Below the pieces are notes generated by a model, which saw nothing but the letters and a program-made list of their open reading frames with translations, was not told where the DNA came from and made no database searches. Shown in pieces: positions 1,938 through 60,883 of a DNA stretch of 64,000 nucleotides. The translations under genes were made by a program, and so were the position numbers. Numbering within the stretch: the first letter of the stretch is position 1; each line of letters begins with the position of its first letter. Source of the stretch: an uncultured Gammaproteobacteria bacterium. GTDB lineage: Bacteria; Patescibacteriota; Microgenomatia; Daviesbacterales; UBA10151. Location: positions 21,752 to 85,751 of the forward strand of contig CAZDFU010000001.1 in the NCBI GenBank assembly GCA_964504985.1, read 5' to 3'.

Positions 1938-2172
1938 TCACCACCCAAATAGGGTAATGAACAAGGAACGAGAGGTTAATCCATTAAAAAAGGACCTCCC
2001 GCGGTCCCATCCTGTTTCCCTGTACCATTACTGGTACGGGGCTCTTAGTGGCGACTCTACGGTTATCGTGACATCGTCTGTTGTATTTTACAGTTCAACT
2101 TCTGGAATACATTTTTGTATTCAGCTGGTGGATCGTGACTCCACTCATAACGCTTTTTAGATATTTAATTGT
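1938..2172 (-). promoter_or_regulatory. T-box riboswitch leader, probably tRNA-His responsive, upstream of hisG-hisI-hisS
   Basis: ~235-nt leader between a sigma70-like promoter and hisG. The minus strand contains ...ACAGGAUGGGACCGCGGGAGGUCCUUUUUU, resembling the T-box consensus AAUUAGGGUGGNACCGCGG; the UGGG bulge would pair with an NCCA end carrying discriminator C (tRNA-His). A CAC triplet in the upstream stem region is a candidate specifier. A terminator/antiterminator arrangement is present. Confidence 0.5.
1986..2008 (-). terminator. intrinsic terminator (T-box terminator arm)
   Basis: Minus strand reads GGGACCGCGGGAGGUCC followed by UUUUUU: GGACC/GGUCC stem plus a U-tract, just upstream of the hisG start. 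Confidence 0.55.
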
Positions 2173-2206: not shown

Positions 2207-2230
2207 ATATACTATCGGCTACCTTAGGTG

Positions 2231-2749
2231 TTAACGTAATCCACCCCCCAGGTGAATGAATCTTCGGATTTTAACTCTGATTCTGGTTATCTTTTCCCAG
2301 CTTACAATCCTAAGGTCTGTGGCAACTCTGGTGAAGATATCTTTTATGGGGTCAACCCAGTAAATTTCTCCGTCCAGGGATTTGAAATTTTCAGGATGAA
2401 GTTCGCATTTGTCAGCCAAAAATTGAGAGCGGGCACAAAGTGTCTCCAAAGGATTAGCAATGCTTTGATCGTCCTTTATAAGATCTTGAATAATCACATA
2501 TGATTTACCCATGCCTTTCACTTTTGAATTTGGTAAATGAACCTTTTCCAAGTTTGAGGTTAGCTCTTGGGCAAATCTTAAATCACTTCTGATAACATTT
2601 GCAGGGGCTTGCCTGGTAAATGTTCCATAAGTAAGCAGCAATAAATGATGCCAAAACCTGGGTACTTTTAAAAGTTTGTCAGGATGGTTAGATGATGCCT
2701 TCCAAACAATATGCTCATGCCCCTTATCAAAAAATACTCTTTCTCCCAT
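2231..2749 (-). CDS. hypothetical protein
   Basis: 172-aa ORF with no recognisable motif; it fills the gap between the his leader and the downstream gene. Confidence 0.45.
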   Translation of the reverse strand: MGERVFFDKGHEHIVWKASSNHPDKLLKVPRFWHHLLLLTYGTFTRQAPANVIRSDLRFAQELTSNLEKVHLPNSKVKGMGKSYVIIQDLIKDDQSIANPLETLCARSQFLADKCELHPENFKSLDGEIYWVDPIKDIFTRVATDLRIVSWEKITRIRVKIRRFIHLGGGLR

Positions 2750-4244: not shown

Positions 4245-4679
4245 TCAGATTGTTTCCTTTGAATAGTAAACTGTCCTTTCGATACTTCTTGTATCTCCAT
4301 CAGTACCAAAAACAGCAGTTGTTATTGTATTTACTCCTTCTTTTAAATTTAAAACTGTTGAAAATGAGCCATCCTGCTTTGACTTAATAACTAAATCCTG
4401 TGAATCTGAAAAAATCAAAACGTCTTTTACAGATGAGGTTTGTCCGGATATTACGATGGAGCTTTGGGAAGTTAAACTGTCATCTGCAGGTTGGTCTAAA
4501 TCCAATCTTAAAGTTTTTGGAGCACTGGTAACAGGCCCTCTTAGAAAGGGTTTTAAAGGTTGTTGATATTGGATATTTAAAATATAGTAAAGTCCTGATA
4601 AGAAAACTAAACCAAAGATAAGAATAAGGAAATGAAAGAAAATAAAATATTTAGTGGAAATTTTCTGGGTCAGCTTCAC
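4245..4679 (-). CDS. membrane-anchored hypothetical protein
   Basis: N-terminal TM helix followed by a Ser/Thr-rich segment. Confidence 0.4.
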   Translation of the reverse strand: MKLTQKISTKYFIFFHFLILIFGLVFLSGLYYILNIQYQQPLKPFLRGPVTSAPKTLRLDLDQPADDSLTSQSSIVISGQTSSVKDVLIFSDSQDLVIKSKQDGSFSTVLNLKEGVNTITTAVFGTDGDTRSIERTVYYSKETI

Positions 4680-5414: not shown

Positions 5415-6782
5415 ATGCCTCAGGTAACTAAACTTCCGCCTCAGAATATAGAAGCAGAACAATCTTTATTGGGGAGCTTGCTTATTGATAAAGATTCAAT
5501 TGTACGGATTTCAGAAATAATACACCCTTCTCATTTCTACAGAATAGACCAACATGGACCAATTTTTGAAGCAGTCCAATCTTTGTTTGAGAAAAGAGAG
5601 CCTGTTGATCTGGTGACAGTTACAGAGGAGCTAAAAAGAAAAGGCCATTATGATAAGATTGGCGGGTCAGCTTATCTTACAACCCTTGTTAATACTGTTC
5701 CAACCTCAGCCCATATTGAACATTACGCTAGGATTATAAAAGCCCATGCAGTCAGAAGGAACTTGATTGTCCAGGCCACTAAATTAATTGAAAGGGCATA
5801 TAACGAATCTGAGGATGTTGATCAGCTTTTGGAGGCTGCTGAAGCAGGTATTTTTGCGATATCCCAGGAACATGTCAGCCGTGACTTTTTGCCTATCAGA
5901 GAGGCTTTAACTCAATCTTTTGACCGCTTGGATGAATTGCAAAAATCTTCTGGAAAACTCCGCGGGGTTCCAACAGGCTTTAGGGATTTGGATAGTAAAC
6001 TGGCAGGCATGCAAAATTCAAATCTGATAATTTTGGCTTCAAGGCCCGGTCAGGGAAAAACTTCCATGGCTTTAAATATTGCCCAATATGTGGCAGTTGT
6101 GGCTGGGCTGCCTGTTGGAATTTTTTCTTTGGAAATGAGCCAGGAAGAACTGGTTGATAGATTATTGATAGCCCAGGCTGATATTGATGCCTGGAAACTT
6201 AAAACAGGCAGATTAGATGAGAGGGATTTCGATAAACTTTCTTTGGCAATGGGTGAATTGGCTGAGGCACCTGTTTTTATTGATGATACCCCAGGGATTA
6301 CCATTTCTGAGATGAGGACAAAGGCCAGAAGGCTGCAGATTGAACATGGATTAAGATTCTTGATTGTGGATTATCTGCAGCTTGTTAAGGGAAGAAATTT
6401 GGAAAACAGGGTGCAGGAAGTTTCTGAAATTTCCCAAAACCTTAAAAATTTGGCCAGGGAGTTGAAGATTCCAGTTTTAGCGATAAGTCAATTATCAAGA
6501 GCTGTTGAACAAAGAGGTACCAGAAAGCCTCAGCTGGCAGACCTTAGGGAGTCTGGAGCTATAGAGCAGGATGCAGACGTGGTGATGTTTATTTATAGGG
6601 AAGATCCAGAAAGGATGGAGTTGGTTACCCTGGATATTCAAAAACATAGGAATGGGCCTGTTGGAGAGGTTTCATTAATGTTTAGGGCTGATAGGACTAA
6701 GTTTTATGGTTTGGAAAAGGCCAGGAGTATAACTAAGCCTGCCTCAGAGAAAGAATCTAAAGAAACTCCAGTTGCTGCTTAA
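5415..6782 (+). CDS. dnaB: replicative DNA helicase DnaB
   Basis: N-terminal LPPQNIEAEQSLLGSLL, Walker A GQGKTS and the RecA-like C-terminal domain; 455 aa with no intein. Confidence 0.9.
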   Translation: MPQVTKLPPQNIEAEQSLLGSLLIDKDSIVRISEIIHPSHFYRIDQHGPIFEAVQSLFEKREPVDLVTVTEELKRKGHYDKIGGSAYLTTLVNTVPTSAHIEHYARIIKAHAVRRNLIVQATKLIERAYNESEDVDQLLEAAEAGIFAISQEHVSRDFLPIREALTQSFDRLDELQKSSGKLRGVPTGFRDLDSKLAGMQNSNLIILASRPGQGKTSMALNIAQYVAVVAGLPVGIFSLEMSQEELVDRLLIAQADIDAWKLKTGRLDERDFDKLSLAMGELAEAPVFIDDTPGITISEMRTKARRLQIEHGLRFLIVDYLQLVKGRNLENRVQEVSEISQNLKNLARELKIPVLAISQLSRAVEQRGTRKPQLADLRESGAIEQDADVVMFIYREDPERMELVTLDIQKHRNGPVGEVSLMFRADRTKFYGLEKARSITKPASEKESKETPVAA

Positions 6783-6933: not shown

Positions 6934-9498
6934 ATGAGCAAACACAGATTACCCGTGCATATTAAACCCGAAAGATATAAAATCATGCTCAAACCTGACT
7001 TGGAGCAATTCAGCTTTGAGGGTGAGGAAACAATTTATCTGATTTTAGAAAAATCCACCAAACAAATTACCCTGCATAGTGTTGATTTGGAAATTTTATC
7101 AGCTGACTGGATTCATAAATCTAAAGAGGTTTGGGCTGGGAAAATTTCTTATGATCAAAAAGCAGAAACAGCAACCCTAACTTTTCCTAAAAATTTGGAA
7201 AAAGGAAAAGGGGAATTAATACTTAAATTCAAAGGGATTTTAAATGATAAAATGAGGGGTTTTTATAGAAGTAGATTTGAGCACAGTGGGGAAGTAAAAC
7301 ACCTGGCTGCCACTCAGTTTGAATCAACTGATGCAAGAAGGGCATTCCCAAGTTTTGATGAGCCATCTCAAAAAGCTATTTTTGATGTGACATTAATGAT
7401 TCCTGCTCACACCATAGCCATTTCCAATACCTTAGAATCTGCTGTTTCTGAGCATGAAAGCGGGTTAAAAATTGTCGAGTTTGAACCCACCCCAAAGATG
7501 AGTACCTATCTTTTAGCATTTATTGTAGGTGAGTTTGAATATATTGAAGGAAAAACAAAGGATAATGTTGTAGTAAGAGTTTTTACCACCCCTGGTAAAA
7601 AAGAGCAGGTTAAATTTGCTTTGGAGGTAGCTATAAAATGTTTAGAATTTTATAACAACTATTTCAGGATTGATTACCCTCTTCCAGTTTTAGATATGAT
7701 TGCTATCCCTGATTTTGCAGCAGGGGCTATGGAGAATTGGGGGGCAGTAACTTACAGGGAATCTACCCTCTTGGTTGATGAAGCACAAACCTCCACAGCC
7801 AATAAGCAATGGGTAGCTATGGTAATTGCCCATGAGTTAGCACACCAGTGGTTTGGGAATTTAGTAACAATGGAATGGTGGACCCATCTTTGGTTAAATG
7901 AAGGTTTTGCCTCATTTATTGAGTATTTGGCTATTGATCATATTTTTCCCCAGTGGGATATCTGGACTCAATTTGTGGCTCAGGAAACAGGCAGTGCTTA
8001 CCAACTGGATGCTTTAAATAACACTCATCCAATAGAAATTAGTGTTGGACATCCAGCAGAGATTTCAGAGATTTTTGATAAGGTTTCCTATTCCAAAGGG
8101 GCCTCAATTTTAAGGATGCTTCATGAATATTTAGGGGCTAAAGATTTTCAAAAAGGATTGCAACATTATCTTAAACGGCATGCGTATTCTAATGCTCGAA
8201 CAGAAGATTTATGGAGGGCGTTAGAAGAAAAGAGTGGTAAACCGGTGAGAAAAGTGATGGCAAATTGGACATCAAAAGCAGGGCACCCATTAATAAGTGT
8301 AAAGTGCAAAGTGAAAAGTGAAAAGTTAGAATTAAGACAAAGCAGATTTTTCTCCAGTCCCATTTCCAGAGAAGAAAGCAAAGATAAAACAGTTTGGAAT
8401 ATTCCACTAAAAGTAGGAGGTAAACAATTATTAATGGATAAAAAATCCCTAGGTGTCAAGCTAGTCCACCTCCCAGGTGGGATAAAGGTGAATGCAGGGG
8501 AAGCTAGTTTTGTCAGGGTAGATTATCCTCATGAATTATTAAAAAAACTTGAAGGGACTATTAAGGAGGGTGGTCTGACTGCACCTGATAGATTAGGTTT
8601 GATAAGAGATACTTTTGGGTTGGCTCAATCCGGCCAGACCCCTACAACTTCAGCTTTAGAATTGGCTTTGGCTTATAAATATGAGGAAGATTATACTGTC
8701 TGGGCAGAGCTCACAGGACATTTGTCCCAGCTTGACAGCTTGTTAGCTTATGAAGTTTTCTACAACCAATTTAGAATTTATGGACAAAAAATATATAAAG
8801 ATATTGCAGATAAAATGGGATGGGAAAAAAGAAGAGAAGATAAGCATACAGATTCCTTGCTCCGGGGGATGGTTTTAAACATGCTGGGTAAATTTGGTGA
8901 TGAAGAAGTTATAAAAAAGGCTCAGGATTTATATGGATCCCTGATCAAGTCAGGGATGACAAATAGTATTGATCCTGATTTAAAAGGAGTTGTATATAAC
9001 CTGGTGGCTGAAAATGGTAATAAATCTGAATGGAATAGCTTGGTTAAGATGTATAAAGAAGAAGAAAACCAGCAGGAAAAAGACAGGATTGGCAGAAGTT
9101 TAGGGCATTTTAAAAGTAAATCTTATCTTTTGAAAAGTTTGGAGTTTTCCATATCAAAACATGTTAGGTTCCAAAATAGTTTGGGGATTATTGCTTCTGT
9201 TTGGGGAAATCCCCACGGAAGGTATTTAGCATGGGAATTTGTTAAAAGTAACTGGAAACTTTTAAAGGAAAGGTATGCAGGCGGTCATTATTTTACCAGG
9301 GTATTTGCTTCTGCAGGAGAGTTTACTAAAGTTTCTGATGCCAAAGATATTGAAAAGTTTGCAAGGATTAATCCTGTGCCTGAAGCCAAAAGAACTATTG
9401 CCCAGGTTTTAGAACAAATTTATTCAAATGTGGAATGGCTAAAAAGGGATAAACAAAAAATCAAAAAAATTCTGCAAAATCCCCAGGTGTCAAGCTAG
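6934..9498 (+). CDS. pepN: M1-family aminopeptidase (aminopeptidase N-like)
   Basis: GAMENWG exopeptidase motif and HELAHQWFGNLVTMEWW...LWLNEGFA zinc-binding HEXXH-(18)-E signature. Confidence 0.85.
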   Translation: MSKHRLPVHIKPERYKIMLKPDLEQFSFEGEETIYLILEKSTKQITLHSVDLEILSADWIHKSKEVWAGKISYDQKAETATLTFPKNLEKGKGELILKFKGILNDKMRGFYRSRFEHSGEVKHLAATQFESTDARRAFPSFDEPSQKAIFDVTLMIPAHTIAISNTLESAVSEHESGLKIVEFEPTPKMSTYLLAFIVGEFEYIEGKTKDNVVVRVFTTPGKKEQVKFALEVAIKCLEFYNNYFRIDYPLPVLDMIAIPDFAAGAMENWGAVTYRESTLLVDEAQTSTANKQWVAMVIAHELAHQWFGNLVTMEWWTHLWLNEGFASFIEYLAIDHIFPQWDIWTQFVAQETGSAYQLDALNNTHPIEISVGHPAEISEIFDKVSYSKGASILRMLHEYLGAKDFQKGLQHYLKRHAYSNARTEDLWRALEEKSGKPVRKVMANWTSKAGHPLISVKCKVKSEKLELRQSRFFSSPISREESKDKTVWNIPLKVGGKQLLMDKKSLGVKLVHLPGGIKVNAGEASFVRVDYPHELLKKLEGTIKEGGLTAPDRLGLIRDTFGLAQSGQTPTTSALELALAYKYEEDYTVWAELTGHLSQLDSLLAYEVFYNQFRIYGQKIYKDIADKMGWEKRREDKHTDSLLRGMVLNMLGKFGDEEVIKKAQDLYGSLIKSGMTNSIDPDLKGVVYNLVAENGNKSEWNSLVKMYKEEENQQEKDRIGRSLGHFKSKSYLLKSLEFSISKHVRFQNSLGIIASVWGNPHGRYLAWEFVKSNWKLLKERYAGGHYFTRVFASAGEFTKVSDAKDIEKFARINPVPEAKRTIAQVLEQIYSNVEWLKRDKQKIKKILQNPQVSS
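8447..8482. repeat. dispersed hairpin repeat, copy A (in-frame inside pepN)
   Basis: CCCTAGGTGTCAAGCTAGTCCACCTCCCAGGTGGGA; contains a CCACCT/AGGTGG inverted repeat; 35/36 identical to copy B. Confidence 0.7.
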
Positions 9499-9516
9499 TC
9501 CACCTCCCAGGTGGGA
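9481..9516. repeat. dispersed hairpin repeat, copy B (supplies the pepN stop codon)
   Basis: CCCCAGGTGTCAAGCTAGTCCACCTCCCAGGTGGGA; one frame-step relative to copy A, so TAG within the repeat terminates pepN. Confidence 0.7.
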
Positions 9517-11514: not shown

Positions 11515-11687
11515 ATTTTCGTTCTATCAGTGTATCACGTTTTGTCAATGAATTCGACTTCCCGCTCATCATTGATCCTGAGCGTAAGCCGAAGGATCAA
11601 TTTGATTCAAATGCATCTTCGTGGTACTCTTCTCTTGCAGTTTGTGGTTAGTAGTTATTTGTGTGAGTATATGAACTCCTAGCTCCT

Positions 11688-11723
11688 AACTCTGAACTCT
11701 GAACTAATAACTAATAACTAATT
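11688..11723. repeat. AACTCTGAACTAATAACTAATAACTAATT repeat element, copy a
   Basis: Tandem CTGAACT and TAATAAC sub-repeats immediately 5' of the lgt ATG; 28-nt identity to copy c. Confidence 0.6.
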
Positions 11724-30969: not shown

Positions 30970-33900
30970 TTATGATCCTATTTTTTCTTTAGAAGACACA
31001 ACTGTTGCTGCTGCTACCCTCTCTCCTGTCCTTACCCTCATTAATATTACTCCCTGGGTTTGTCTTTGCAGGGTTGGAACCTCTTTTAGATCCATTTTTA
31101 TAAGTTGTCCTTTGGTAGAAGTTAAAACTAATGTATCCATTAAGGGGTTTATGGCTTGGGCTGTCACAATAGGCCCTGTTTTGGTTGTAACCTGGGCAGC
31201 TTTAACGCCTTGTCCTCCCCTCCCCTGTTTGCTCCAGCTGGAAAACTTGGTTTTTTTACCCAATCCATTTTCCATTATAACCAAAAGTTCATCATCCTGG
31301 TTTTCTATAAAAGTCAGGGATACTACTTCGTCTGACCCACTAAGCCTTATTCCCCTAACCCCTGAGGTATCCCTATGAGTTGGTTTAACCTGTGATTCTG
31401 AGAAACGGATTGATTTTCCGCCTCTTGAGACTATAATCAAATCATCTTTCCCAGAGGTGGGACAAACCCAGCCCAACTCATCATCTTTATCAAGTTTAAT
31501 TGCTACCAGGCCGTTTTTGCGGATATTGGCATATTCAGTTATGGCAGTCTTTTTAACAGTGCCTTTTTTAGTGCACATGAAGAAAAATTTGGCTGCTTCC
31601 TCTTTTTGGCGGGTTGTTAAGACAGCGGTAACTTTTTCCCCCTGTTCAATATTGATTAAATTAACCACAGCCTGGCCTTTTGCAGCTCTTTGGGTTTCAG
31701 GAATCTCCCAGACTTTAATCTGAAAGACTCTGCCTTTGTCTGTGAAAAATAAAATACTGTCATGAGTTTGGGTATAAAAAATATGTGAAACAGCATCTGT
31801 GTCCTTGGTTGATATACCCATTACCCCTTTGCCACCGCGCTGCTGGGTTCTAAAAGAGTGTGGTGATTGTCTTTTGATATACCCGCCTTCTGTAATGGTT
31901 GCAATTGTTGTCTCATTTGCCACCAAATCTTCTTCTGAAAACTCCCCAACTTTTTGTTTATAAACCCTGGTTCTTCTATCATCTGCATATTTTTCCTTAA
32001 TTTTTATAAGTTCATCTTTAATTACTTTAAGGATCTTTTCTGGATGTGCTAATAAATCTTCCGGATAGGCAATGGTTTCCCTTACCATTTTTAACTCATC
32101 CTCAATTTTTTGTCTTTCCAAAGCAGCAAGACGCCTTAGCTGCATATCCAAAATGGCAACAGCCTGGATTTCTGTTAATTTGAATTTATCCATCAAATTC
32201 TGTCTTGCAGAATCAGCATCCTTGGATTTTTTAATAGTCTCAATAACTTCGTCGATATTATCAACTGCAATTTTTAGCCCTTCCAAAATATGTTCCCTGG
32301 CTTTGGCTTCTGCCAGTTCAAATTCAGATCTTTTGGTGACAACTACAATTCTATGATGGGTAAATTCTTCTAAGATTCTTTTTAAGGTTAAAAGATGAGG
32401 CACTCCATCTGAAAGGGCTACCAGATTAACATTAAAAACCGACTGCATGGACGTATATTTGTAAAGATTATTTAAAATAGACTGTGGCTTGGCATCCCTT
32501 TTTAGGTCAAAAACAATCCTGACCATTTGTTTTCTGTCTGATTCATCCCTTAGATCTGCAATGCCTTCTAATTTTTTATCTTTAACAAGGTCTGCAATTC
32601 TGGCAATTAAGGTTGCTTTATTTACCTGGTACGGCAGCTCGGAAACAATAATCTGCATTTTTCCCTGTGGTGTTTCATCTATTTCTGCTTTGGCTCTCAT
32701 AACTATTCTGCCCTTACCAGTAGCATAAGCTGATAAAATTTCTGTTTGATCATAAATAGATGCGCCTGTAGGAAAATCTGGGCCTTTAATAAATTGCATC
32801 AGGTCCTCAACATTTGCCTCAGAGCGGAAAACTTTATCAGAATGAGGTTGTTCACCTGAATTTTCAGGAGCTTGAGGTTTTAATTTAGCATCTGGTTTTT
32901 CTGGATGCTCTATTAGATAAATCAAAGCATCACATACCTCCCCCAGATTATGAGGCGGGATTTGAGTAGCCATACCAACAGCAATACCAGAGGCTCCATT
33001 TAAAAGTAAGTTTGGTATAACAGAAGGCAGGAGTATTGGTTCTTTGGTTGTTCCAGAATAATTATCAATAAAATCAACAGTTTTTTTATTTATATCCCTT
33101 AAAAGCTCATCAGCTATGGCAGATAATCTAGCTTCAGTATTATGGTTTATAAAACCATTTCCTACAAAAGAATGACATTTGCTGTCTACTTTTAAAGAAT
33201 ACACAGTTTGAATTCCACCGTCTTCTATTTGGGAGACAGAATCAAATAGGTAATTATTTGAAATTAAATGTTCAAATAATAATTGGGTATCGAGTTTTAA
33301 AGTTGGTATAACAGTTGGCACTATCTGGCTATAATTTGAGGTTAAATTAGCATAGCGGTCAAAATTATGTTTTATAGCAAATTCACGTTTGACATAGGAT
33401 AAATTATGGTCTAACTGGCCTAGAACATATTTTCTTAAGAAAGGGACATAATCCAAAAGTGATGAATCTTTATGTAAGGAAAATAATATTTTTTCTAATT
33501 TCCCATTTTTATGTTCAGATAAAAAACCAATTTCTCTTTGGAATAACCTGTAATTCCTAAGACCTCTTATATATAACTTATGAGTTGACCTAAATTTATC
33601 AAATCTTTTAGTTGAGGCAATACCAAATCTTAAAAGGATAATTTGTAATTGACTAATAAGCTTTTCACTTACAGATATAGCTGATAACTCAACCATTTTT
33701 ATACTGCTGCTTATACTTCCATCACCTTCAAAATAAGCCTGCAAAAATCTAGCAACTACTTCTTTAGAAGATTGTAGGATAACTTGAGGGATTTCTTTTT
33801 GTGCTGCTTTAAGAGGGTTTAAGCCTAGGTTTTTCAAAAACTCAATAATATATAAACTATGGATCTCTAATCTATAATATGGTTTCTTACCATAAGAGCT

Positions 33901-34842
33901 TGGTTGTTTTAAAAATTTATGTAAATGACAATCAGGGAAAACCTCTTTCCAAATCATCTCAAATTCATTTATCCAGTTTTCATCACTGTTGCAAAATTCA
34001 ATTTTTTTCTTTCCTACATATCCTTCTGAAATAAGTGCCCCCAGAATATATGCTAAATCAGAATTTAAAGTTTTTGGTAAAATTTTAACCTCAGTCCTAT
34101 AACTTGGATCTTTAGGAATGAATTCCTTTAGAGATATTTCCCCTGTTGGCCAGATGAGATCTGAGGTTCTATCGATAACAGTTATATCCCCTTTTCCGAT
34201 TTGACTAAGTAGTTTCCATTTATACTCAGGTTTACCGGTAATTGGATTTTTAACCCATGTTAACAAAGGATGATTATGAGATCCTTGAATGGTAAATCCC
34301 TGGTTTGTTGTAATCTTGATTGTTGGGTGATGGCCACTATCAAACCATTTTGAAGTTTTATTAATAGTGCGGTTTCTGGAAAGTATTGATGTTTTAAAAT
34401 CCTCTGATTGATTTGGTGAAATATCTTTAATTTGTTGAAGACCTTTTTCAGTAACTATTAAAGTATCACCAGTAATGCAATACCGCATGGCTGCTGGTGA
34501 ATCCCCGTCAATTGAACCAAAATTTCCCTGGCCATCAATTAGCATATACCTCATAGAAAAATTCTGAGCCATTCTAACCATAGCCTCATAAACAGGGGCA
34601 TCTCCGTGTGGATGAAGATTTTTCAAAACTTCTCCCACCACTGCTGCAGATTTTTGATACCTGGAGGTATGGTGCAGGCCTTGTTCAGACATGGCAAAGA
34701 TAATTCTTCTTTGAACAGGTTTAAGGCCATCTCTTACATCAGGCAAGGCACGGGACACTATAACGCTCATGGCGTAATCCAGATAGGATTTTTGCATTTC
34801 TTCAATAATAGGAGCTGGTTGAACTTTTCCGATATTTGCCAT
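30970..34842 (-). CDS. gyrA: DNA gyrase subunit A, interrupted in-frame by an intein
   Basis: 1290-aa ORF; exteins total 843 aa with GyrA motifs (active-site region ...[16 protein letters not shown]|TEARL...). An intein sits between AMRY and TEARL. Confidence 0.9.
33139..34479 (-). mobile_element. GyrA intein (447 aa) with LAGLIDADG homing-endonuclease domain
   Basis: Begins CITGDTLIV (block A) and ends VGNGFINHN followed by extein T (+1 nucleophile). Internal [14 protein letters not shown] and [20 protein letters not shown] motifs. Boundaries checked against codons at 34477-34479 (TGC) and 33139-33141 (AAT). Confidence 0.85.
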
Positions 34843-34927: not shown

Positions 34928-35572
34928 CTAAGAAGATAAAGGGTGTTTTTTGGGCCAGGTTTTCCAGGCCATTTTATTTCCGGAGGAAAGAACTTGTCCA
35001 TCTCTGTATAAAGGAAATTCATCTTTTTCAACTTCATGAAGATGATCAGGATTTTTGATATGATCATAAAATAAAATTCCATTAAGGTGATCAATTTCAT
35101 GTTGGAAAATCCTGGCTATGTAACCGGTCCATTTTTCCTCTATAGAAGTCAACCTGGGAGGTTGTTTAGCTAGACGGCCTAGGGATTTTAAGACAATTGC
35201 CCTGATTTTAATGGCTTTCGGTCTGGAAACAATACCGCAGATTTTGCCGGTTGAGTAACAACCCTCATACCATTTTGCTTTTGTTTTAGAACTCCATATA
35301 ATTTCTGGATTAACATATATTCTTAAATCGCCTACTTTTCCTCTTCCATTAGCTTTTGTATCAACCAAAATAATTCTTTTTGAAATACCAATTTGAGGGG
35401 CAGCAAGTCCAACCATAATTGGTTTTTTACTATTTTTTTGTTCCCCATGAGCAATTTTAAGCATTTTTTCTATAATTTTTTTAGTTTGATTGGAAAGAAT
35501 TTCTTGCGCTGGTATTTTTGAAGATCTTTTTTTAAGAAGCAGATTATTAGGTTTTAGAAATAAATTTCTCAT
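34928..35572 (-). CDS. def: peptide deformylase
   Basis: GLAAPQIG, EGCYS and HEIDHLNG motifs; start assigned to the internal Met. Confidence 0.8.
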   Translation of the reverse strand: MRNLFLKPNNLLLKKRSSKIPAQEILSNQTKKIIEKMLKIAHGEQKNSKKPIMVGLAAPQIGISKRIILVDTKANGRGKVGDLRIYVNPEIIWSSKTKAKWYEGCYSTGKICGIVSRPKAIKIRAIVLKSLGRLAKQPPRLTSIEEKWTGYIARIFQHEIDHLNGILFYDHIKNPDHLHEVEKDEFPLYRDGQVLSSGNKMAWKTWPKKHPLSS

Positions 35573-44250: not shown

Positions 44251-47536
<3,286 letters not shown>

Positions 47537-56463: not shown

Positions 56464-57119
56464 ACCGGACTAATAACTCTGAACTAATAACTAAGAACTT
56501 ATTAGGTTTTACTTTGGTGGAGATTCTGGTAGTAATGGCAGTACTTTCTATCTTTGGGACGCTTGTGGTAACTATTTTTAGCCGTACTTTAACAGGCAGT
56601 AATAAATCGCAGCTGATTGGTGTGATAAAGCAAAACGGACAGGCTGTTTTGGATAAAATAGATAAAACTGCCAGGAATGCTGATTATGTTTGTGTAAGCA
56701 CTGATAATAAAACCCTGGTAACAGTTAAAGATGGTATTAATACCCGCTACAGGTTTATCCCTTCTGCCCCGCTTTCTAATCCTACTTCTTCTGGTTTGAT
56801 TCAACAGGACAATCCTACAAGCAATCAAGGAGAGACTACCCCGGATTTTATGGATAGAGTATGCGGGAATACGAGTGATATGATAAACCCTGTTGTATTA
56901 ACTGATACCAACGCTCAAACAGGGGTTTCTGTTGATTGTGTTGCTGTAAATGGCGCCCCCGATTGCGGAGCTAACCCTGTATTTTATAGAGAAAGTTCAG
57001 AAGGGTTTATGGATCAGGTGACTATTAAGTTTGATCTGCGCCCGGGGGTGCGTATACCTGATGCAGTATCAAGCCAGGTTGGTTCAATAACATTTCAGAC
57101 AACAATACAACTAAGATGA
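56460..57119 (+). CDS. type IV prepilin paralog
   Basis: MNRTNNSELITKNLLG|FTLVEILVVMAVLSIFG; the leader peptide is encoded by a copy of the AACTCTGAACTAATAACTAA repeat. Confidence 0.55.
   Translation: MNRTNNSELITKNLLGFTLVEILVVMAVLSIFGTLVVTIFSRTLTGSNKSQLIGVIKQNGQAVLDKIDKTARNADYVCVSTDNKTLVTVKDGINTRYRFIPSAPLSNPTSSGLIQQDNPTSNQGETTPDFMDRVCGNTSDMINPVVLTDTNAQTGVSVDCVAVNGAPDCGANPVFYRESSEGFMDQVTIKFDLRPGVRIPDAVSSQVGSITFQTTIQLR
56470..56497. repeat. AACTCTGAACTAATAACTAA repeat element, copy b (coding, pilin leader)
   Basis: ACTAATAACTCTGAACTAATAACTAAGAAC. Confidence 0.55.
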
Positions 57120-58446: not shown

Positions 58447-59000
58447 AATGGAAATCTAAAAGGGGTTTAACGCTTGTGGAAGTCTTAATTGCTATGGGGA
58501 TAGCGGTTGTGGTGGCAGGGCTGCTTTTGGTAATCATGCTTAATAGCGCAGGGCTTTATTATAAACAGTCTTCAAAGCTTCAGGGAGGGTTAAATAGCAA
58601 CGATGCGCTTTTTAAGATCAGACAGTCTGTTAAGGAAGCAGGCAGTATCAGCCCGTTATCTTCTTCAGAGCAGCTTATTTTAAAGATTTCCTCAATTGAT
58701 TCATCAGGCGGTATTATTGCCAATGCTTATGATGATTTTATTTTTTTGAAAGATCAGAAAAACCTGCGTTTTAGGATTATTCCGGCAGCAGGAGTAAGTT
58801 CCAGGTTTTCCCAGGATCAAATTTTTTCAACAAATGTGGAAAGTGTAACTTTTCAATATTTTAACTTGGCAAATCCCCCTTTGGAGGTAAGTCCTGAGCT
58901 TGCCAGCAAAGTCAGGGTTAGTTTAACTTTAAAGCAAAAATCAGGTGCAGATTATGAGGCAATTATTGCAACATCTGAGGCAAGTTTAAGAAATGACTGA
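58443..59000 (+). CDS. minor pilin (PilW-like)
   Basis: MKWKSKRG|LTLVEVLIAMGIAVVVAGLLLV. Confidence 0.5.
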   Translation: MKWKSKRGLTLVEVLIAMGIAVVVAGLLLVIMLNSAGLYYKQSSKLQGGLNSNDALFKIRQSVKEAGSISPLSSSEQLILKISSIDSSGGIIANAYDDFIFLKDQKNLRFRIIPAAGVSSRFSQDQIFSTNVESVTFQYFNLANPPLEVSPELASKVRVSLTLKQKSGADYEAIIATSEASLRND

Positions 59001-59028
59001 ATTAGTTATTAGTTATTAGTTCAGAGTT
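59001..59028. repeat. AACTCTGAACTAATAACTAATAACTAATT repeat element, copy c (reverse orientation)
   Basis: ATTAGTTATTAGTTATTAGTTCAGAGTT, the reverse complement of copy a, lying between two pilus genes. Confidence 0.6.
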
Positions 59029-59035
59029 ATGAGTT

Positions 59036-60883
59036 ATGAGTAAATACAAAAACAAAAAAACTAATAACCAGAATGGACAGATACTGGTTATTATCTTTGT
59101 GGCTTTGGGAGTGGTGTTATTTTCTGTACTATCAATTGTGGCAGGAGCACAGATTTATTTTCAGAATGCCCAGCATTCTATTGAAGCTGAAAAAGCAGTG
59201 GCTTTGGCTGAGGCTGCTTTGGATAAAGCCATAACCTCTTTAAATAAAACAGGAGGAAGTTATGATGGTGAGGAAGATATTGCTCTAGGTGAAGGCACAT
59301 ATTCTATTAACATTACCTCCCCTAACGCTGCCACTAAATTGATTGAAGCTACGGGTTTTATACCGGATAAAGATAATGCCAAAGTTAAAAGAACCATCAA
59401 AATTACTGCTTCAAGAGGCACAGGAGTGTCTTTTGTTTATGGGATGCAAGTTGGGGAAGGAGGGTTGGAGCTTGGGAATGGGAATTTAGTTAAGGGGTCA
59501 ATTTATTCTAATGGAAATATTGAGATGGGTGAAAATAATACTATTACAGGAGATGCCTGGGTGGCAGCAGGGGTTCCCCCAACAGCCAATCAGCAAACAG
59601 ATTGTCAAACATGTTCGGATTTCCATTTTGGGAAAAGTATTGAAGGGCAAAGCAGATTGGATATTACCCAAAGTTTCAAGCCTTCTGTTTCTGATAAAAT
59701 TAGAAAGATTTCCCTTAAGGTTAAAAAAATAGGCCCAGGTCCTCATTCAGATCTTAGTGTCAGGATAATAAAAGATAATGGCGGAAAGCCTGGAAAAAAT
59801 CCCAGTGATATTTTAGCAACAGGTACGCTAAGTAATATGCTTGTTACACAAGAGTATGGTTTTATAGATGTGACTTTTTCCAGCAACCCTGCCTTATCAG
59901 CAGAAGAAACTTACTGGATAATGGTAGATACTTCATCTAACGTGGTAAATTATTGGTCCTGGCAAAACGATAGTGCAGCAAGTTACAACCGGGGGCAACC
60001 CAAATGGTCTCCTGATTGGAGCGCCGGCAATCCTGTCTGGAATGATTTAACAGGAGGCCCTAACTTAAACGAGCTGAGTTTTAAAGTCTATATGGGCGGG
60101 ACTACAACTTCCCTTTCAGGAGGAAATAATACTACAGTTTTAGGTGATGTGCATGCAAACACAGTAGATGGGCTTATAGTAGGAAAAGATGCTTATTATC
60201 AGGCTATAACTGATTCAACTGTCAGCGGTAGTTCTTGCCCTAACGTGCATTGCCATCCAGGGTCTGAGGATCCCCCGCCTCAAAACTTTCCTATTTCTGA
60301 GGCAAATATAGCTGGATGGAAAACTGATGCAGAGGATTCAGGTTCTCTTTCCCAGCCAACTTGCGGCTCAGAGGCAGCCTGGGGACCTGGTAAATATACA
60401 GGAAACCTTACGCTGGGTAACTCATGTGTTATTAAAGTTAAAACCCCTATCTGGATAACAGGGGATCTAACCATGGGAAATGAGAATAGATTTATTCTTG
60501 ATTCTTCTTTTGGAACCTCCTCAGGTGTAATAATCCTAGGGACTAGTGGAACCAGCGGAAAAGCTACCATGGGTAACCAGAATAAACTAATTGGTACAGG
60601 AGAAGAAAATAGCATCTTAGTGCTTCTTTCAACTTATGATTCCAGAACGAATGATGAGAAAGCCATTAGTATGGGGAATATAGGCAACAGCGGGGTCTTT
60701 TATGCTGATAAAGGCATAATTGATCCTGGTAATAGAAATAATTTTAAAGAGATAACTGCCTGGAAAATAAAATTAACCAATGAATCTACTATAGATTATG
60801 AAACAGGCTTGGCTTCTATCCTTTTTTCTTCAGGACCCTCAGGATCTTATTCTTTGGTTAAAGGAACATACCAGGTTAAATAA
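59036..60883 (+). CDS. large pilus-associated protein with PilX-like N-terminal anchor (tip/adhesin candidate)
   Basis: N-terminal TM helix QILVIIFVALGVVLFSVLSIVAGAQIY followed by 580 aa of Gly/Asn/Thr-rich beta-type sequence; encoded at the end of the minor-pilin array. Confidence 0.4.
   Translation: MSKYKNKKTNNQNGQILVIIFVALGVVLFSVLSIVAGAQIYFQNAQHSIEAEKAVALAEAALDKAITSLNKTGGSYDGEEDIALGEGTYSINITSPNAATKLIEATGFIPDKDNAKVKRTIKITASRGTGVSFVYGMQVGEGGLELGNGNLVKGSIYSNGNIEMGENNTITGDAWVAAGVPPTANQQTDCQTCSDFHFGKSIEGQSRLDITQSFKPSVSDKIRKISLKVKKIGPGPHSDLSVRIIKDNGGKPGKNPSDILATGTLSNMLVTQEYGFIDVTFSSNPALSAEETYWIMVDTSSNVVNYWSWQNDSAASYNRGQPKWSPDWSAGNPVWNDLTGGPNLNELSFKVYMGGTTTSLSGGNNTTVLGDVHANTVDGLIVGKDAYYQAITDSTVSGSSCPNVHCHPGSEDPPPQNFPISEANIAGWKTDAEDSGSLSQPTCGSEAAWGPGKYTGNLTLGNSCVIKVKTPIWITGDLTMGNENRFILDSSFGTSSGVIILGTSGTSGKATMGNQNKLIGTGEENSILVLLSTYDSRTNDEKAISMGNIGNSGVFYADKGIIDPGNRNNFKEITAWKIKLTNESTIDYETGLASILFSSGPSGSYSLVKGTYQVK

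What the first reader, a model, noticed from the sequence alone, without database searches (positions are those of the whole stretch)
8447..9516. Family of ~36-nt hairpin repeats (CCYAGGT..CTAGTCCACCTCCCAGGTGGGA) inserted in-frame into housekeeping genes
Three copies share 24-36 nt of identity (8447-8482, 9481-9516, 47431-47467) and carry a CCACCT/AGGTGG stem. All three lie inside or at the edge of ORFs. Copy A is translated mid-pepN (LVHLPGG). Copy B, shifted one frame, supplies the pepN stop codon. Copy C is translated at the holB N-terminus (HLGGG), where the Walker A motif would be. Intergenic REP/MITE-like elements are common; coding-embedded, frame-compatible ones are unusual. They suggest a small mobile element, or a hairpin-targeted process that tolerates or uses coding sequence.
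Basis: seen in the sequence. Interest (0 to 1): 0.65.

Follow-up and report, generated by a model that had tools for sequence, protein, structure and literature searches.

The report
REP-like hairpin repeats in Daviesbacteria genes
The repeats are real copies of a small hairpin element of the REP type, which in related Patescibacteria genomes flanks its own tyrosine (HUH) transposase gene; most copies lie between genes, a minority sit in-frame inside genes, and both behaviours are already known for such elements.

Summary
The 22-mer CTAGTCCACCTCCCAGGTGGGA occurs three times in the window against 0 expected. A covariance model finds exactly five copies: 8446-8482, 9480-9516 and 47430-47467 on the + strand, 35148-35185 on the - strand, and a decayed copy at 2220-2257.

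The element is TCCCTAGGTG, then N10-11 ending in (C/G)TA-N, then a covarying hairpin NNMACCT-CCC-AGGTKNN.

A genome scan found the same element in more than 90 loci, mainly Microgenomates (Daviesbacteria, Levybacteria, Gottesmanbacteria and others). In 13 loci two inverted copies directly flank a 222-aa gene. That gene matches Pfam Y1_Tnp, carries an HUH motif and a catalytic Tyr, and its closest solved structure is the E. coli REP-associated transposase 4ER8. This is a REP/RAYT system.

Of 105 copies, 67 are intergenic, 18 overlap gene 3' ends and 17 lie inside ORFs.

In the window, three copies are in-frame in variable loops of pepN, holB and def. One supplies the pepN stop, and orthologs stop at the element's own CCCTAG.

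The Walker A remark is wrong. All Daviesbacteria holB orthologs are short.

Intragenic REPs are already documented, so this is a new member of a known kind and of moderate interest.

The parts
8446..8482 (+). Copy A, a full element (TCCCTAGGTGTCAAGCTAGTCCACCTCCCAGGTGGGA). It is translated in-frame as pepN residues 505-516 (SLGVKLVHLPGG), between the M1 catalytic region and the ERAP1_C domain.
   Evidence: The covariance model scores it 62.6 bits. In the ortholog alignment it replaces the consensus MTIPNKGE, a net gain of 4 aa, and only P0002 shares it.
9480..9516 (+). Copy B, a full element with T5>C (TCCCCAGG...). It overlaps the last six codons of pepN and provides its stop codon (TAG at 9496-9498). 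It lies in the pepN-efp spacer.
   Evidence: The covariance model scores it 58.3 bits. Orthologous loci L117 and L118 carry diverged remnants at the same place, and there pepN stops at the TAG of CC(C)TAGG.
47430..47467 (+). Copy C, a full element of the 38-nt variant. It is antisense to holB and is translated as holB residues 24-36 ([13 protein letters not shown]).
   Evidence: The covariance model scores it 59.5 bits. It lies in a loop of variable length in holB orthologs, and P0123 shares a diverged copy.
35148..35185 (-). Copy E, a diverged full element (TCCCTAGGCCGTCTAGCTAAACAACCTCCCAGGTTGAC) with a compensated stem CAACCT/AGGTTG. It is in-frame in peptide deformylase (KSLGRLAKQPPRLTS).
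   Evidence: The covariance model scores it 49.5 bits. The ORF matches Pfam PF01327. The segment is a 9-11 aa insertion relative to solved deformylases.
2220..2257 (+). Copy D, a decayed element (TACCTTAGGTGTTAACGTAATCCACCCCCCAGGTGAAT). It lies at the 3' end of ORF 2231-2749 (- strand), upstream of the hisG leader.
   Evidence: The covariance model scores it 21.5 bits, E 5e-5.
6934..9498 (+). pepN, an M1 aminopeptidase of 854 aa. It is the host gene of copies A and B.
   Evidence: Pfam Peptidase_M1_N, Peptidase_M1 and ERAP1_C. Orthologs in Daviesbacteria are 65-77% identical.
46856..47536 (-). holB-like gene (short DNA polymerase III delta', 226 aa). It is the host gene of copy C.
   Evidence: Pfam DNA_pol3_delta2, profile positions 67-159 only. 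All orthologs are 200-250 aa and start with MIARLLIS.
34928..35572 (-). def (peptide deformylase, 214 aa counted from the ATG at 35572). It is the host gene of copy E.

Best explanation
The repeats belong to a REP-type (repetitive extragenic palindrome) family of the Microgenomates and wider Patescibacteria.

Anatomy. Each unit is about 37-38 nt. It has a conserved 5' block TCCCTAGGTG. A spacer of 10-11 nt follows and usually ends in (C/G)TA-N, at the position where classical REPs carry GTAG. Directly after that comes a hairpin of 6-8 bp with a CCC loop (NNMACCT-CCC-AGGTKNN).

Mechanism. These steps are inferred from the enzyme family. In single-stranded DNA the hairpin and its 5' tag are bound by a dedicated Y1 HUH tyrosine transposase of the RAYT/TnpAREP type, which cuts and rejoins single strands. 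This spreads and homogenises copies within a genome. In related genomes the enzyme's gene sits between two inverted copies.

Distribution. This step is shown. Copies accumulate where they do little harm: spacers, often directly after or overlapping stop codons, and, in open frames only, surface loops or linkers of proteins. In-frame copies add about 12 residues: SLGVKLVHLPGG or SLGxLAxxPPRL in sense, SHLGGGLxxxPRE in antisense.

In this window, three copies are translated in this way (pepN, holB, def) and two sit at gene 3' ends. No transposase gene lies in the 64 kb, so it is presumably elsewhere in the genome.
For: Repeat and structure.
- The repeat is far beyond chance. The window holds five copies and no more.
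- The hairpin covaries across 93 copies: 66 double-change cells against 36.9 +/- 4.1 in shuffles, 0 of 500 shuffles reaching that value. The slid controls are far lower. Pair-by-pair counts agree.

Link to a transposase.
- The genome scan found more than 90 low-GC loci carrying the element.
- In 13 loci a 222-aa ORF lies 0-60 nt from the element. It is usually between two inverted copies whose TCCC ends face the gene.
- The protein matches Pfam PF01797 Y1_Tnp at 39.7 bits against a cut-off of 23.
- It carries the invariant motifs NHxH and RYxHxNP.
- It gives a weak hit to the NCBIfam REP-associated tyrosine transposase model.
- Its AlphaFold model has pLDDT 84. The best match among solved structures is 4ER8, TnpAREP bound to a REP hairpin (E 2.5e-5), ahead of the IS200/IS605 TnpA structures (E about 3e-3).
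- At least 7792 homologs exist. Among the 120 best listed, all carry PF01797, and those with a source name are from Patescibacteria lineages (Daviesbacteria, Levybacteria, Gottesmanbacteria, Parcubacteria, Roizmanbacteria).

Distribution of copies.
- Census of 105 copies: 67 intergenic (12 expected at random), 18 over gene 3' ends (2.8 expected), 17 inside ORFs (77 expected).
- Extragenic copies favour convergent gaps and the 3' side of unidirectional gaps.
- Copies within one genome are more alike than copies from different genomes: 0.62 against 0.495 identity, 0 of 1000 permutations.

Insertions in genes.
- Ortholog alignments show the pepN, holB and def segments are lineage-specific additions in variable loops.
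- The same in-frame peptides recur in carA, murC, uvrB, a sucC-like gene and others in different genomes.
Against: - No transposase gene is in the window (tblastn). I could not retrieve the rest of this genome. The link to a RAYT in this organism therefore rests on relatives, including one Daviesbacteria MAG with two such genes (L082, L110).
- The NCBIfam equivalog model is not met: 49 bits against a cut-off of 80.
- The tag is (C/G)TA-N in 61 of 93 copies. It is the canonical GTAG in only 3.
- The unit carries an extra conserved 5' block that classical REPs lack.
- At the pepN site the element replaces 27 nt with 39 nt rather than simply inserting. The known model does not predict this.
- No activity has been shown.
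Confidence: 0.85

Rival explanations
1. The units are ends or miniature derivatives (MITE-like) of an IS200/IS605 insertion sequence, moved by an ordinary TnpA, with or without TnpB. They would then not be a REP/RAYT system.
For: The protein is in the same Pfam family, PF01797. IS200/IS605 TnpA structures are also significant fold matches. IS200/IS605 ends are subterminal hairpins.
Against: The two flanking copies are inverted, whereas LE and RE hairpins lie on one strand. The only gene family that recurs next to the element is the 222-aa gene, so no TnpB-like partner shows up. The protein is 222 aa, whereas the solved IS200/IS605 TnpA chains it matches are 125-152 residues, and its best structural match is TnpAREP. 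Solo units far outnumber gene-carrying ones.
Confidence: 0.06
2. The hairpin is mainly a functional cis-acting RNA element, such as a 3' mRNA stabiliser, terminator or protein-binding site. Selection would maintain it, and any mobility would be secondary.
For: Copies are enriched directly after genes. In unidirectional gaps 26 are in sense and 11 in antisense orientation. The stem covaries. E. coli REPs are reported to affect mRNA turnover (abstract of PMC3479197).
Against: There is no U tract after the hairpin. One third of oriented copies are antisense, and 19 copies lie in divergent gaps. Copies occur inside ORFs on either strand. No Rfam family matches. A function of this kind does not explain the physical linkage to a transposase gene.
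Confidence: 0.05
3. The intragenic copies are not translated. They would be removed or skipped, by intron-like excision or by translational bypassing as with the hop in phage T4 gene 60.
For: They are short, GC-rich hairpins lying inside essential genes.
Against: Every intragenic copy is in one of the open frames and keeps the host frame. The inserted peptides recur and lie in loops that vary in length among orthologs. Almost no genes are split by an element: there are four candidates, of which the two examined (window pepN-efp and the RAYT locus L015) are trivial and the other two were not followed up.
Confidence: 0.02
4. The repeat is a chance similarity, a shared protein motif or an assembly artefact.
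For: None beyond the short length of the repeat.
Against: Zero matches are expected by chance. Copies are read in different frames, on both strands and in non-coding DNA. The element occurs in independent assemblies from many projects.
Confidence: 0.01

Closest known systems
REP/BIME sequences with RAYT (TnpAREP) transposases, also called 'REPtrons' or REPIN-RAYT systems (Nunvar 2010, PMC2817692; Bertels & Rainey 2011, PMC3116915; Ton-Hoang 2012, PMC3333891; Messing 2012, PMC3479197)
   Same: - The unit is a 30-40 nt hairpin with a short conserved tag 5' of the stem foot.
- There are many dispersed copies, mostly extragenic and close to gene 3' ends.
- The Y1 HUH transposase gene is flanked by inverted units.
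- The enzyme's closest solved structure is TnpAREP (4ER8).
- Copies are more alike within a genome than between genomes.
   Different: - The host is Patescibacteria (Microgenomates). The literature searches found no paper linking these lineages to REP or RAYT.
- The tag is (C/G)TA-N rather than GTAG.
- There is an extra conserved 5' block TCCCTAGGTG, whose AGGTK also covaries with the stem's left arm.
- Units are mostly solitary rather than paired as REPINs or BIMEs.
- The same core is conserved across many candidate phyla rather than within one species or genus.
- The protein is 222 aa, against 165 residues in the 4ER8 chain, and it fails the NCBIfam equivalog cut-off.
Intragenic REPs (Di Nocera et al. 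2013, PMC3733652) and Rickettsia palindromic elements (RPE), as cited in that paper
   Same: Palindromic repeats lie in-frame inside protein-coding genes, including replication and repair genes. They add short peptide segments at tolerated sites, at times at the same site in orthologs.
   Different: The sequence family and host lineage are different. That paper calls RPE-1 'longer palindromic insertions'. Here a single 12-residue cassette is the norm. In the pepN case the element replaces native codons rather than only adding to them.
IS200/IS605 insertion sequences (IS608, ISDra2)
   Same: The enzyme belongs to the same superfamily. Recognition is of a subterminal DNA hairpin together with a short guide sequence at its 5' foot. 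The chemistry acts on single-stranded DNA.
   Different: In those elements the ends lie on one strand, not inverted. They are self-contained elements that copy as a whole and often carry TnpB. None of that is seen here.

Membership tests
REP (repetitive extragenic palindrome) | A short (20-40 nt) imperfect palindrome able to form a stem-loop | tested here: met
   There is a 6-8 bp stem with a CCC loop. Of 744 cells, 84% are paired. There are 66 compensatory cells against 36.9 in shuffles, with 0 of 500 shuffles reaching that value.
REP (repetitive extragenic palindrome) | A conserved tetranucleotide (classically GTAG) immediately 5' of the hairpin foot | tested here: inconclusive
   That position holds (C/G)TA-N in 61 of 93 copies: CTAA 21, CTAT 15, CTAG 13, GTAA 6, GTAG 3, ATAA 3. 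The tag is therefore related but not canonical.
REP (repetitive extragenic palindrome) | Many dispersed copies, mainly extragenic and near gene 3' ends | tested here: met
   The window holds 5 copies in 64 kb. Of 105 copies, 85 are intergenic or overlap a 3' end. The gap types are as expected for REPs. Whole-genome copy numbers were not obtainable.
REP (repetitive extragenic palindrome) | An associated RAYT gene flanked by the same repeats in inverted orientation | tested here: met
   This holds in related genomes: L015, L039, L043, L071, L095, L104 and L114 show inverted flanking copies, and 13 loci in all carry the gene. It could not be tested for the window's own genome, because no such gene lies in the 64 kb and the rest of the contig could not be fetched.
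RAYT / TnpAREP (Y1 HUH transposase) | Y1_Tnp fold with an HUH motif and a single catalytic tyrosine | tested here: met
   PF01797 scores 39.7 bits against a cut-off of 23. N87-H88-x-H90 and R147-Y148-x-H150-x-N152-P153 are invariant in 34 sequences. The model has pLDDT 84.4.
RAYT / TnpAREP (Y1 HUH transposase) | Closer to TnpAREP than to IS200/IS605 TnpA | tested here: met
   Foldseek against the PDB gives 4ER8_A at E 2.5e-5 and TMt 0.61. The next matches are ISDra2 and IS608 TnpA at E 3e-3 or worse. Sequence-only searches of the PDB gave just a marginal ISDra2 hit.
RAYT / TnpAREP (Y1 HUH transposase) | Passes the curated NCBIfam equivalog model NF047646 | tested here: not met
   The score is 49.3 bits against a cut-off of 80. 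The protein is a distant relative of the curated set, not an equivalog.
RAYT / TnpAREP (Y1 HUH transposase) | Binds and cleaves its single-stranded REP | not testable with these tools
   This needs biochemistry.
IS200/IS605 insertion sequence | Left-end and right-end hairpins on the same strand bounding tnpA (with or without tnpB), moving as a unit | tested here: not met
   The flanking units are inverted in most loci. No second conserved gene lies next to the element.
MITE (DDE-type miniature transposon) | Terminal inverted repeats and target-site duplications | tested here: not met
   No target-site duplication is seen: 1 of 93 copies against about 2 expected. The two ends of the unit share only TCCC/GGGA.

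The most novel reading that the evidence does not exclude
This would be an active REP-RAYT system conserved across a whole class, and it would remodel proteins. The enzyme would nick in the hairpin loop just 5' of CAGGT. It could overwrite short stretches of target DNA rather than only insert. Natural footprints of this would be tandem [CAGGT-X] tail duplications and in-frame 12-residue cassettes that replace native loop codons at recurrent hot spots, as at the pepN site. In streamlined Patescibacteria genomes, such a system would be a regular source of loop variation in essential proteins.
Probability: 0.15. Interest if true: 0.6.

Novelty: new member of a known kind. Interest (0 to 1): 0.38.

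Why it matters
REP/RAYT systems have been studied mostly in Proteobacteria. I found no paper linking them to Patescibacteria. Here one family is shared by many Microgenomates lineages that have very small, gene-dense genomes.

It matters in four ways.

1. It shows that such genomes still tolerate a domesticated-transposon repeat.
2. About one copy in six is absorbed into proteins, including pepN, holB, def, carA, murC and uvrB.
3. For annotators, it explains odd 12-residue inserts, altered stop codons and length variation in CPR orthologs.
4. The tail duplications may offer natural evidence on where the enzyme cuts.

None of this overturns current understanding.

Tried and rejected
- CRISPR-like solitary repeat. 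The 37-nt length suggested it, but there are no arrays, copies are dispersed and the element is linked to a transposase.
- Known RNA family. Rfam found nothing at gathering thresholds for the whole window, nor at E<=1 around the copies.
- Literature by sequence. A search for the core sequence returned only unrelated primer matches.
- Domain cassette. Copies A and B bracket the ERAP1_C domain, which suggested a mobile domain. This was rejected because relatives that lack A still have B.
- Ancestral residues. Ortholog alignments show lineage-specific segments in variable loops instead.
- Cross-phylum spread to Gammaproteobacteria. The 'uncultured Gammaproteobacteria (binchicken)' titles are unreliable. 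One such assembly carries Daviesbacteria-type pepN-efp synteny. GC-rich hits such as Amycolatopsis and Corynebacterium share a coding context and look like pattern noise.
- Phage carriage. The pattern has no match in viral contigs.
- Rest of this genome. Four look-ups by exact protein failed.
- Sequence-only PDB search with the transposase. It gave nothing, or a marginal ISDra2 hit at best. Only the fold search was informative.
- A first fuzzy-regex scan timed out.
Full report
**1. The observation**

The sequence at the given coordinates is as described. The 22-mer CTAGTCCACCTCCCAGGTGGGA occurs exactly three times, at 8461, 9495 and 47446, all on the + strand. None is expected in 100 dinucleotide-preserving shuffles.

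Aligned with their flanks, the shared unit runs from TCCC to GGGA. Its coordinates are 8446-8482, 9480-9516 and 47430-47467.

Repeat finding and a relaxed core search turned up two more copies. One is on the - strand at 35148-35185. There the stem has changed from CCACCT/AGGTGG to CAACCT/AGGTTG, a compensated change. The other is a decayed copy at 2220-2257.

A covariance model built later from 93 family members, run with filters off, finds these five copies and nothing else above noise. The scores are 62.6, 59.5, 58.3, 49.5 and 21.5 bits, and the next hit scores 8.4 bits.

**2. Host genes and frames**

- ORF 6934-9498 is an M1 aminopeptidase with Peptidase_M1_N, Peptidase_M1 and ERAP1_C domains.
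- Copy A is read as S505-G516 (SLGVKLVHLPGG), just before ERAP1_C starts at residue 517.
- Copy B is read one frame over as NPQVSS*, so its inner TAG is the pepN stop. The efp gene follows.
- ORF 46856-47536 on the - strand is a short DNA polymerase III delta' that matches only profile positions 67-159.
- Copy C is read antisense as [13 protein letters not shown], residues 24-36.
- Copy E lies in peptide deformylase (PF01327) and is read as KSLGRLAKQPPRLTS.
- Copy D lies at the 3' end of an unassigned ORF, upstream of a sub-threshold T-box-like leader of hisG.

**3. Relatives elsewhere**

The GC-rich hits (Amycolatopsis, Corynebacterium and others) carry TCCCCAGG inside what looks like one conserved coding context, and I set them aside. 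The low-GC hits, more than 90 loci, all share TCCCTAGGTG...CACCTCCCAGGTG.

By record title they come from Daviesbacteria, Levybacteria, Gottesmanbacteria, Woykebacteria, Blackburnbacteria, Chisholmbacteria, other Microgenomates and Patescibacteria, and one 'Parcubacteria' MAG. A few are labelled Pacearchaeota or Bathyarchaeia. Many are labelled 'uncultured Gammaproteobacteria (binchicken)'.

That last label is not reliable. Assembly CAZYPW01 carries it, yet it encodes a pepN 73% identical to the window's, in the same pepN-efp-NTP_transferase order. I therefore treat the family as Patescibacterial and leave the archaeal labels open.

The window itself is from a Daviesbacteria-like genome, judged from the names on its closest pepN and holB homologs.

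**4. Structure of the unit**

Across 93 distinct copies the four pairs next to the CCC loop are fixed by the search pattern. The next four pairs vary and covary:

| Pair | Types and counts |
|---|---|
| 5 | C-G 74, A-T 12 |
| 6 | C-G 36, T-A 18, A-T 7, T-G 7 |

There are 66 double-change cells against 36.9 +/- 4.1 in column shuffles, with 0 of 500 shuffles reaching that value. Paired cells are 84%, against 24-48% when the partner column is slid. A separate count agrees.

The 5' AGGTK also matches the left arm (G-C 75, T-A 10). The left arm could therefore pair with either side. I cannot tell whether this is an alternative fold or only subfamily structure.

Directly 5' of a 7-bp stem the sequence is (C/G)TA-N in 61 of 93 copies. 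This is where classical REPs carry GTAG (PMC3333891; PMC6006769).

There is no target-site duplication, and the upstream flank is A/T-rich. Single-sequence folding gives two small hairpins but with unremarkable z-scores. The case for structure therefore rests on covariation.

**5. The associated gene**

I clustered all ORFs within 3 kb of the element across the loci. One family stands out, present in 11 loci and in 13 by tblastn. It is a protein of about 222 aa lying 0-60 nt from the element.

In L015, L039, L043, L071, L095, L104 and L114 it sits between two copies in inverted orientation whose TCCC ends face the gene. L070 has direct copies instead.

The evidence on the protein is as follows.

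- It matches Pfam Y1_Tnp (E 6e-10, 39.7 bits, cut-off 23).
- It matches the NCBIfam REP-associated tyrosine transposase model only weakly (49 bits, cut-off 80).
- Invariant residues include NHxH (the HUH motif) and RYxHxNP.
- At least 7792 homologs exist in the large protein collection. The 120 best listed all carry PF01797, and those with a source name are called 'transposase', 'putative transposase' or 'hypothetical protein' from Patescibacteria lineages.
- An AlphaFold model (pLDDT 84.4, pTM 0.82) is closest to 4ER8, the E. coli REP-associated transposase bound to a REP hairpin (E 2.5e-5). IS200/IS605 TnpA structures follow at E 3e-3 or worse.

Together with the inverted flanks, this is the published signature of a REP/RAYT 'REPtron' (PMC3733652; PMC3333891).

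The window has no such gene. The rest of its contig could not be fetched.

**6. Where copies sit**

I used a simple longest-ORF annotation of all loci and classified 105 copies.

| Position | Observed | Expected for random positions |
|---|---|---|
| Intergenic | 67 | 12 |
| Overlapping a gene 3' end | 18 | 2.8 |
| Overlapping a gene 5' end | 3 | 3.4 |
| Inside an ORF | 17 | 77 |

Extragenic copies are over-represented in convergent gaps: 26 of 82, against 116 of 617 gaps overall. In unidirectional gaps they lie nearer the upstream gene's 3' end (26 against 11) and mostly in sense orientation (26 against 11).

The family is therefore extragenic by preference, like REPs. The window, with three of five copies inside genes, is at the high end.

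**7. Are the intragenic copies insertions?**

*pepN (37 orthologs).* The consensus at the copy A site is DKKSMTIPNKGEKLN, and the window has [19 protein letters not shown]. Only P0002 (76% identical) has a related segment, SRGVKLVHLGGVQ.

At the DNA level, P0002's locus carries TCCCGAGGTGTCAAGCTAGTACACCTCGGGGGTGTAC. This is a diverged unit whose stem is again compensated (33 bits). Compared with an empty ortholog (L117), 27 nt are replaced by 39 nt, so this is not a clean insertion.

Another relative (L118) has a different hairpin, GTTCCCACATCGGAAGTGGGAAG, at the same place and again in its pepN-efp spacer. The loop is a hot spot.

*pepN 3' end.* L117 and L118 carry decayed units at the same position. 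Their pepN stops at the TAG of CC(C)TAGG. In the window that T is a C (TCCCCAGG), so the frame runs on to the next TAG of the unit. Copy B is thus an ordinary 3'-end REP that has captured the stop codon.

*holB.* All 31 orthologs are 200-250 aa and begin with MIARLLIS, so the Walker A region is absent from the whole lineage. The unit lies in a segment between SH.. and NHPD whose length varies from 0 to about 20 residues. P0123 shares a diverged copy, SHLGGVIDITPRENF.

*def.* The segment is a 9-11 residue insertion relative to solved deformylases, in the hairpin that precedes the HEIDH helix.

*Other genomes.* The same cassettes appear in carA, a sucC-like gene, RibD_C-like genes (in two Daviesbacteria), CobQ-type amidotransferases (the same site in two MAGs), an IscU-like gene, murC and uvrB.

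Only the open frames are used. Few genes are split by a unit: there are four candidates, of which the two examined (window pepN-efp and the RAYT locus L015) are trivial and the other two were not followed up. This argues for translation rather than removal.

**8. Dynamics**

In 18 variable positions, copies from one genome are more alike than copies from different genomes: 0.62 against 0.495, with 0 of 1000 permutations reaching the difference. Copies A and B differ at a single base, while the orthologous copies in other genomes have diverged strongly. This fits amplification or homogenisation within genomes.

In 14 of 91 copies the tail starting at the last loop C, [CAGGT + 6-16 nt], is duplicated in tandem two or three times. 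Only 15 of 1146 other CAGGT sites show this. The junction is fixed at CC|CAGGT.

This resembles the cleave-extend-rejoin scheme proposed for BIME amplification by TnpAREP, which cuts at C|T and CC|T sites (PMC3333891). It may mark a cut site, but that is inference only. The 5' block TCC|CTAGG also contains a CC|T. None of the five window copies shows such a duplication.

**9. Comparison with what is known, and verdict**

The system works like REP/RAYT and meets most of the defining features (see the membership table). The differences are the non-canonical tag, the extra 5' block, the failure of the NCBIfam equivalog cut-off, the mostly solitary units, and the conservation of one core across many candidate phyla.

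[quoted passage not shown] Searches of the held literature found nothing linking REP or RAYT to Patescibacteria lineages, and the core sequence itself is not cited. No copy was found in viral contigs.

I rate this a new member of a known kind. It is useful for annotating CPR genomes and of moderate interest. Two open points remain: the replacement-type events at loop hot spots, and the tail duplications.

Noticed in passing
L009, L023, L037, L039, L065, L071, L072, L076, L087, L089, L094, L108 (3' flank of the element); not in the window: In 14 of 91 family copies the tail [CAGGT + 6-16 nt], starting at the last C of the CCC loop, is tandemly duplicated two or three times. Only 15 of 1146 other CAGGT sites show this. 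It may be a footprint of the transposase's cut-and-rejoin activity.
   Followed up: partly
window 1961-2157 (-): There is a sub-threshold T-box leader match (33.8 bits, gathering score 93, E 5e-6) directly upstream of hisG (939-1934, - strand). This may be a divergent T-box regulating histidine biosynthesis.
   Followed up: partly
window 44251-46836 (-) and 30970-34842 (-): Both gyrase genes carry inteins. gyrB has an Intein_splicing domain. gyrA (1290 aa) has Intein_splicing plus a LAGLIDADG homing-endonuclease domain.
   Followed up: no
window 11683-11723 (+), 56469-56503 (+), 59000-59040 (-): A second, AT-rich repeat family (AACTCTGAACTAATAACTAATAACTAAT) occurs in three spacers, 91-93% alike. 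It is unrelated to the hairpin element.
   Followed up: no
L118 around 4540-4570 (pepN copy-A site) and 5660-5700 (pepN-efp spacer); L115 spacer after 4347: A different hairpin repeat, GTTCCCACATC(C/G)GAAGTGGGAAGCTAG, occupies the same pepN loop in-frame in a related genome (TRSHIGSG). It recurs in spacers there. It is absent from the window.
   Followed up: partly
pepN orthologs P0027, P0042, P0047, P0056, P0074, P0080, P0094, P0106 (alignment A2, after WSIPL): Many orthologs carry further in-frame insertions of 15-50 residues (...LRA...IASS...RNDx) about 10 residues upstream of the copy-A site. They look like translations of another repeat family.
   Followed up: no
L111 and L118 (assembly CAZYPW01) and other 'binchicken' MAG loci: The record titles say 'uncultured Gammaproteobacteria', yet the contigs carry Daviesbacteria-type pepN-efp synteny and Patescibacterial repeats. 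The taxonomic labels of these MAGs appear to be wrong.
   Followed up: partly
holB orthologs P0179, P0131, P0154, P0133 (alignment A3, columns about 25-45): The holB loop that holds copy C carries other, unrelated insertions in relatives, for example SLPAYPSGRRAGKAG. It is another hot spot for short inserts.
   Followed up: no
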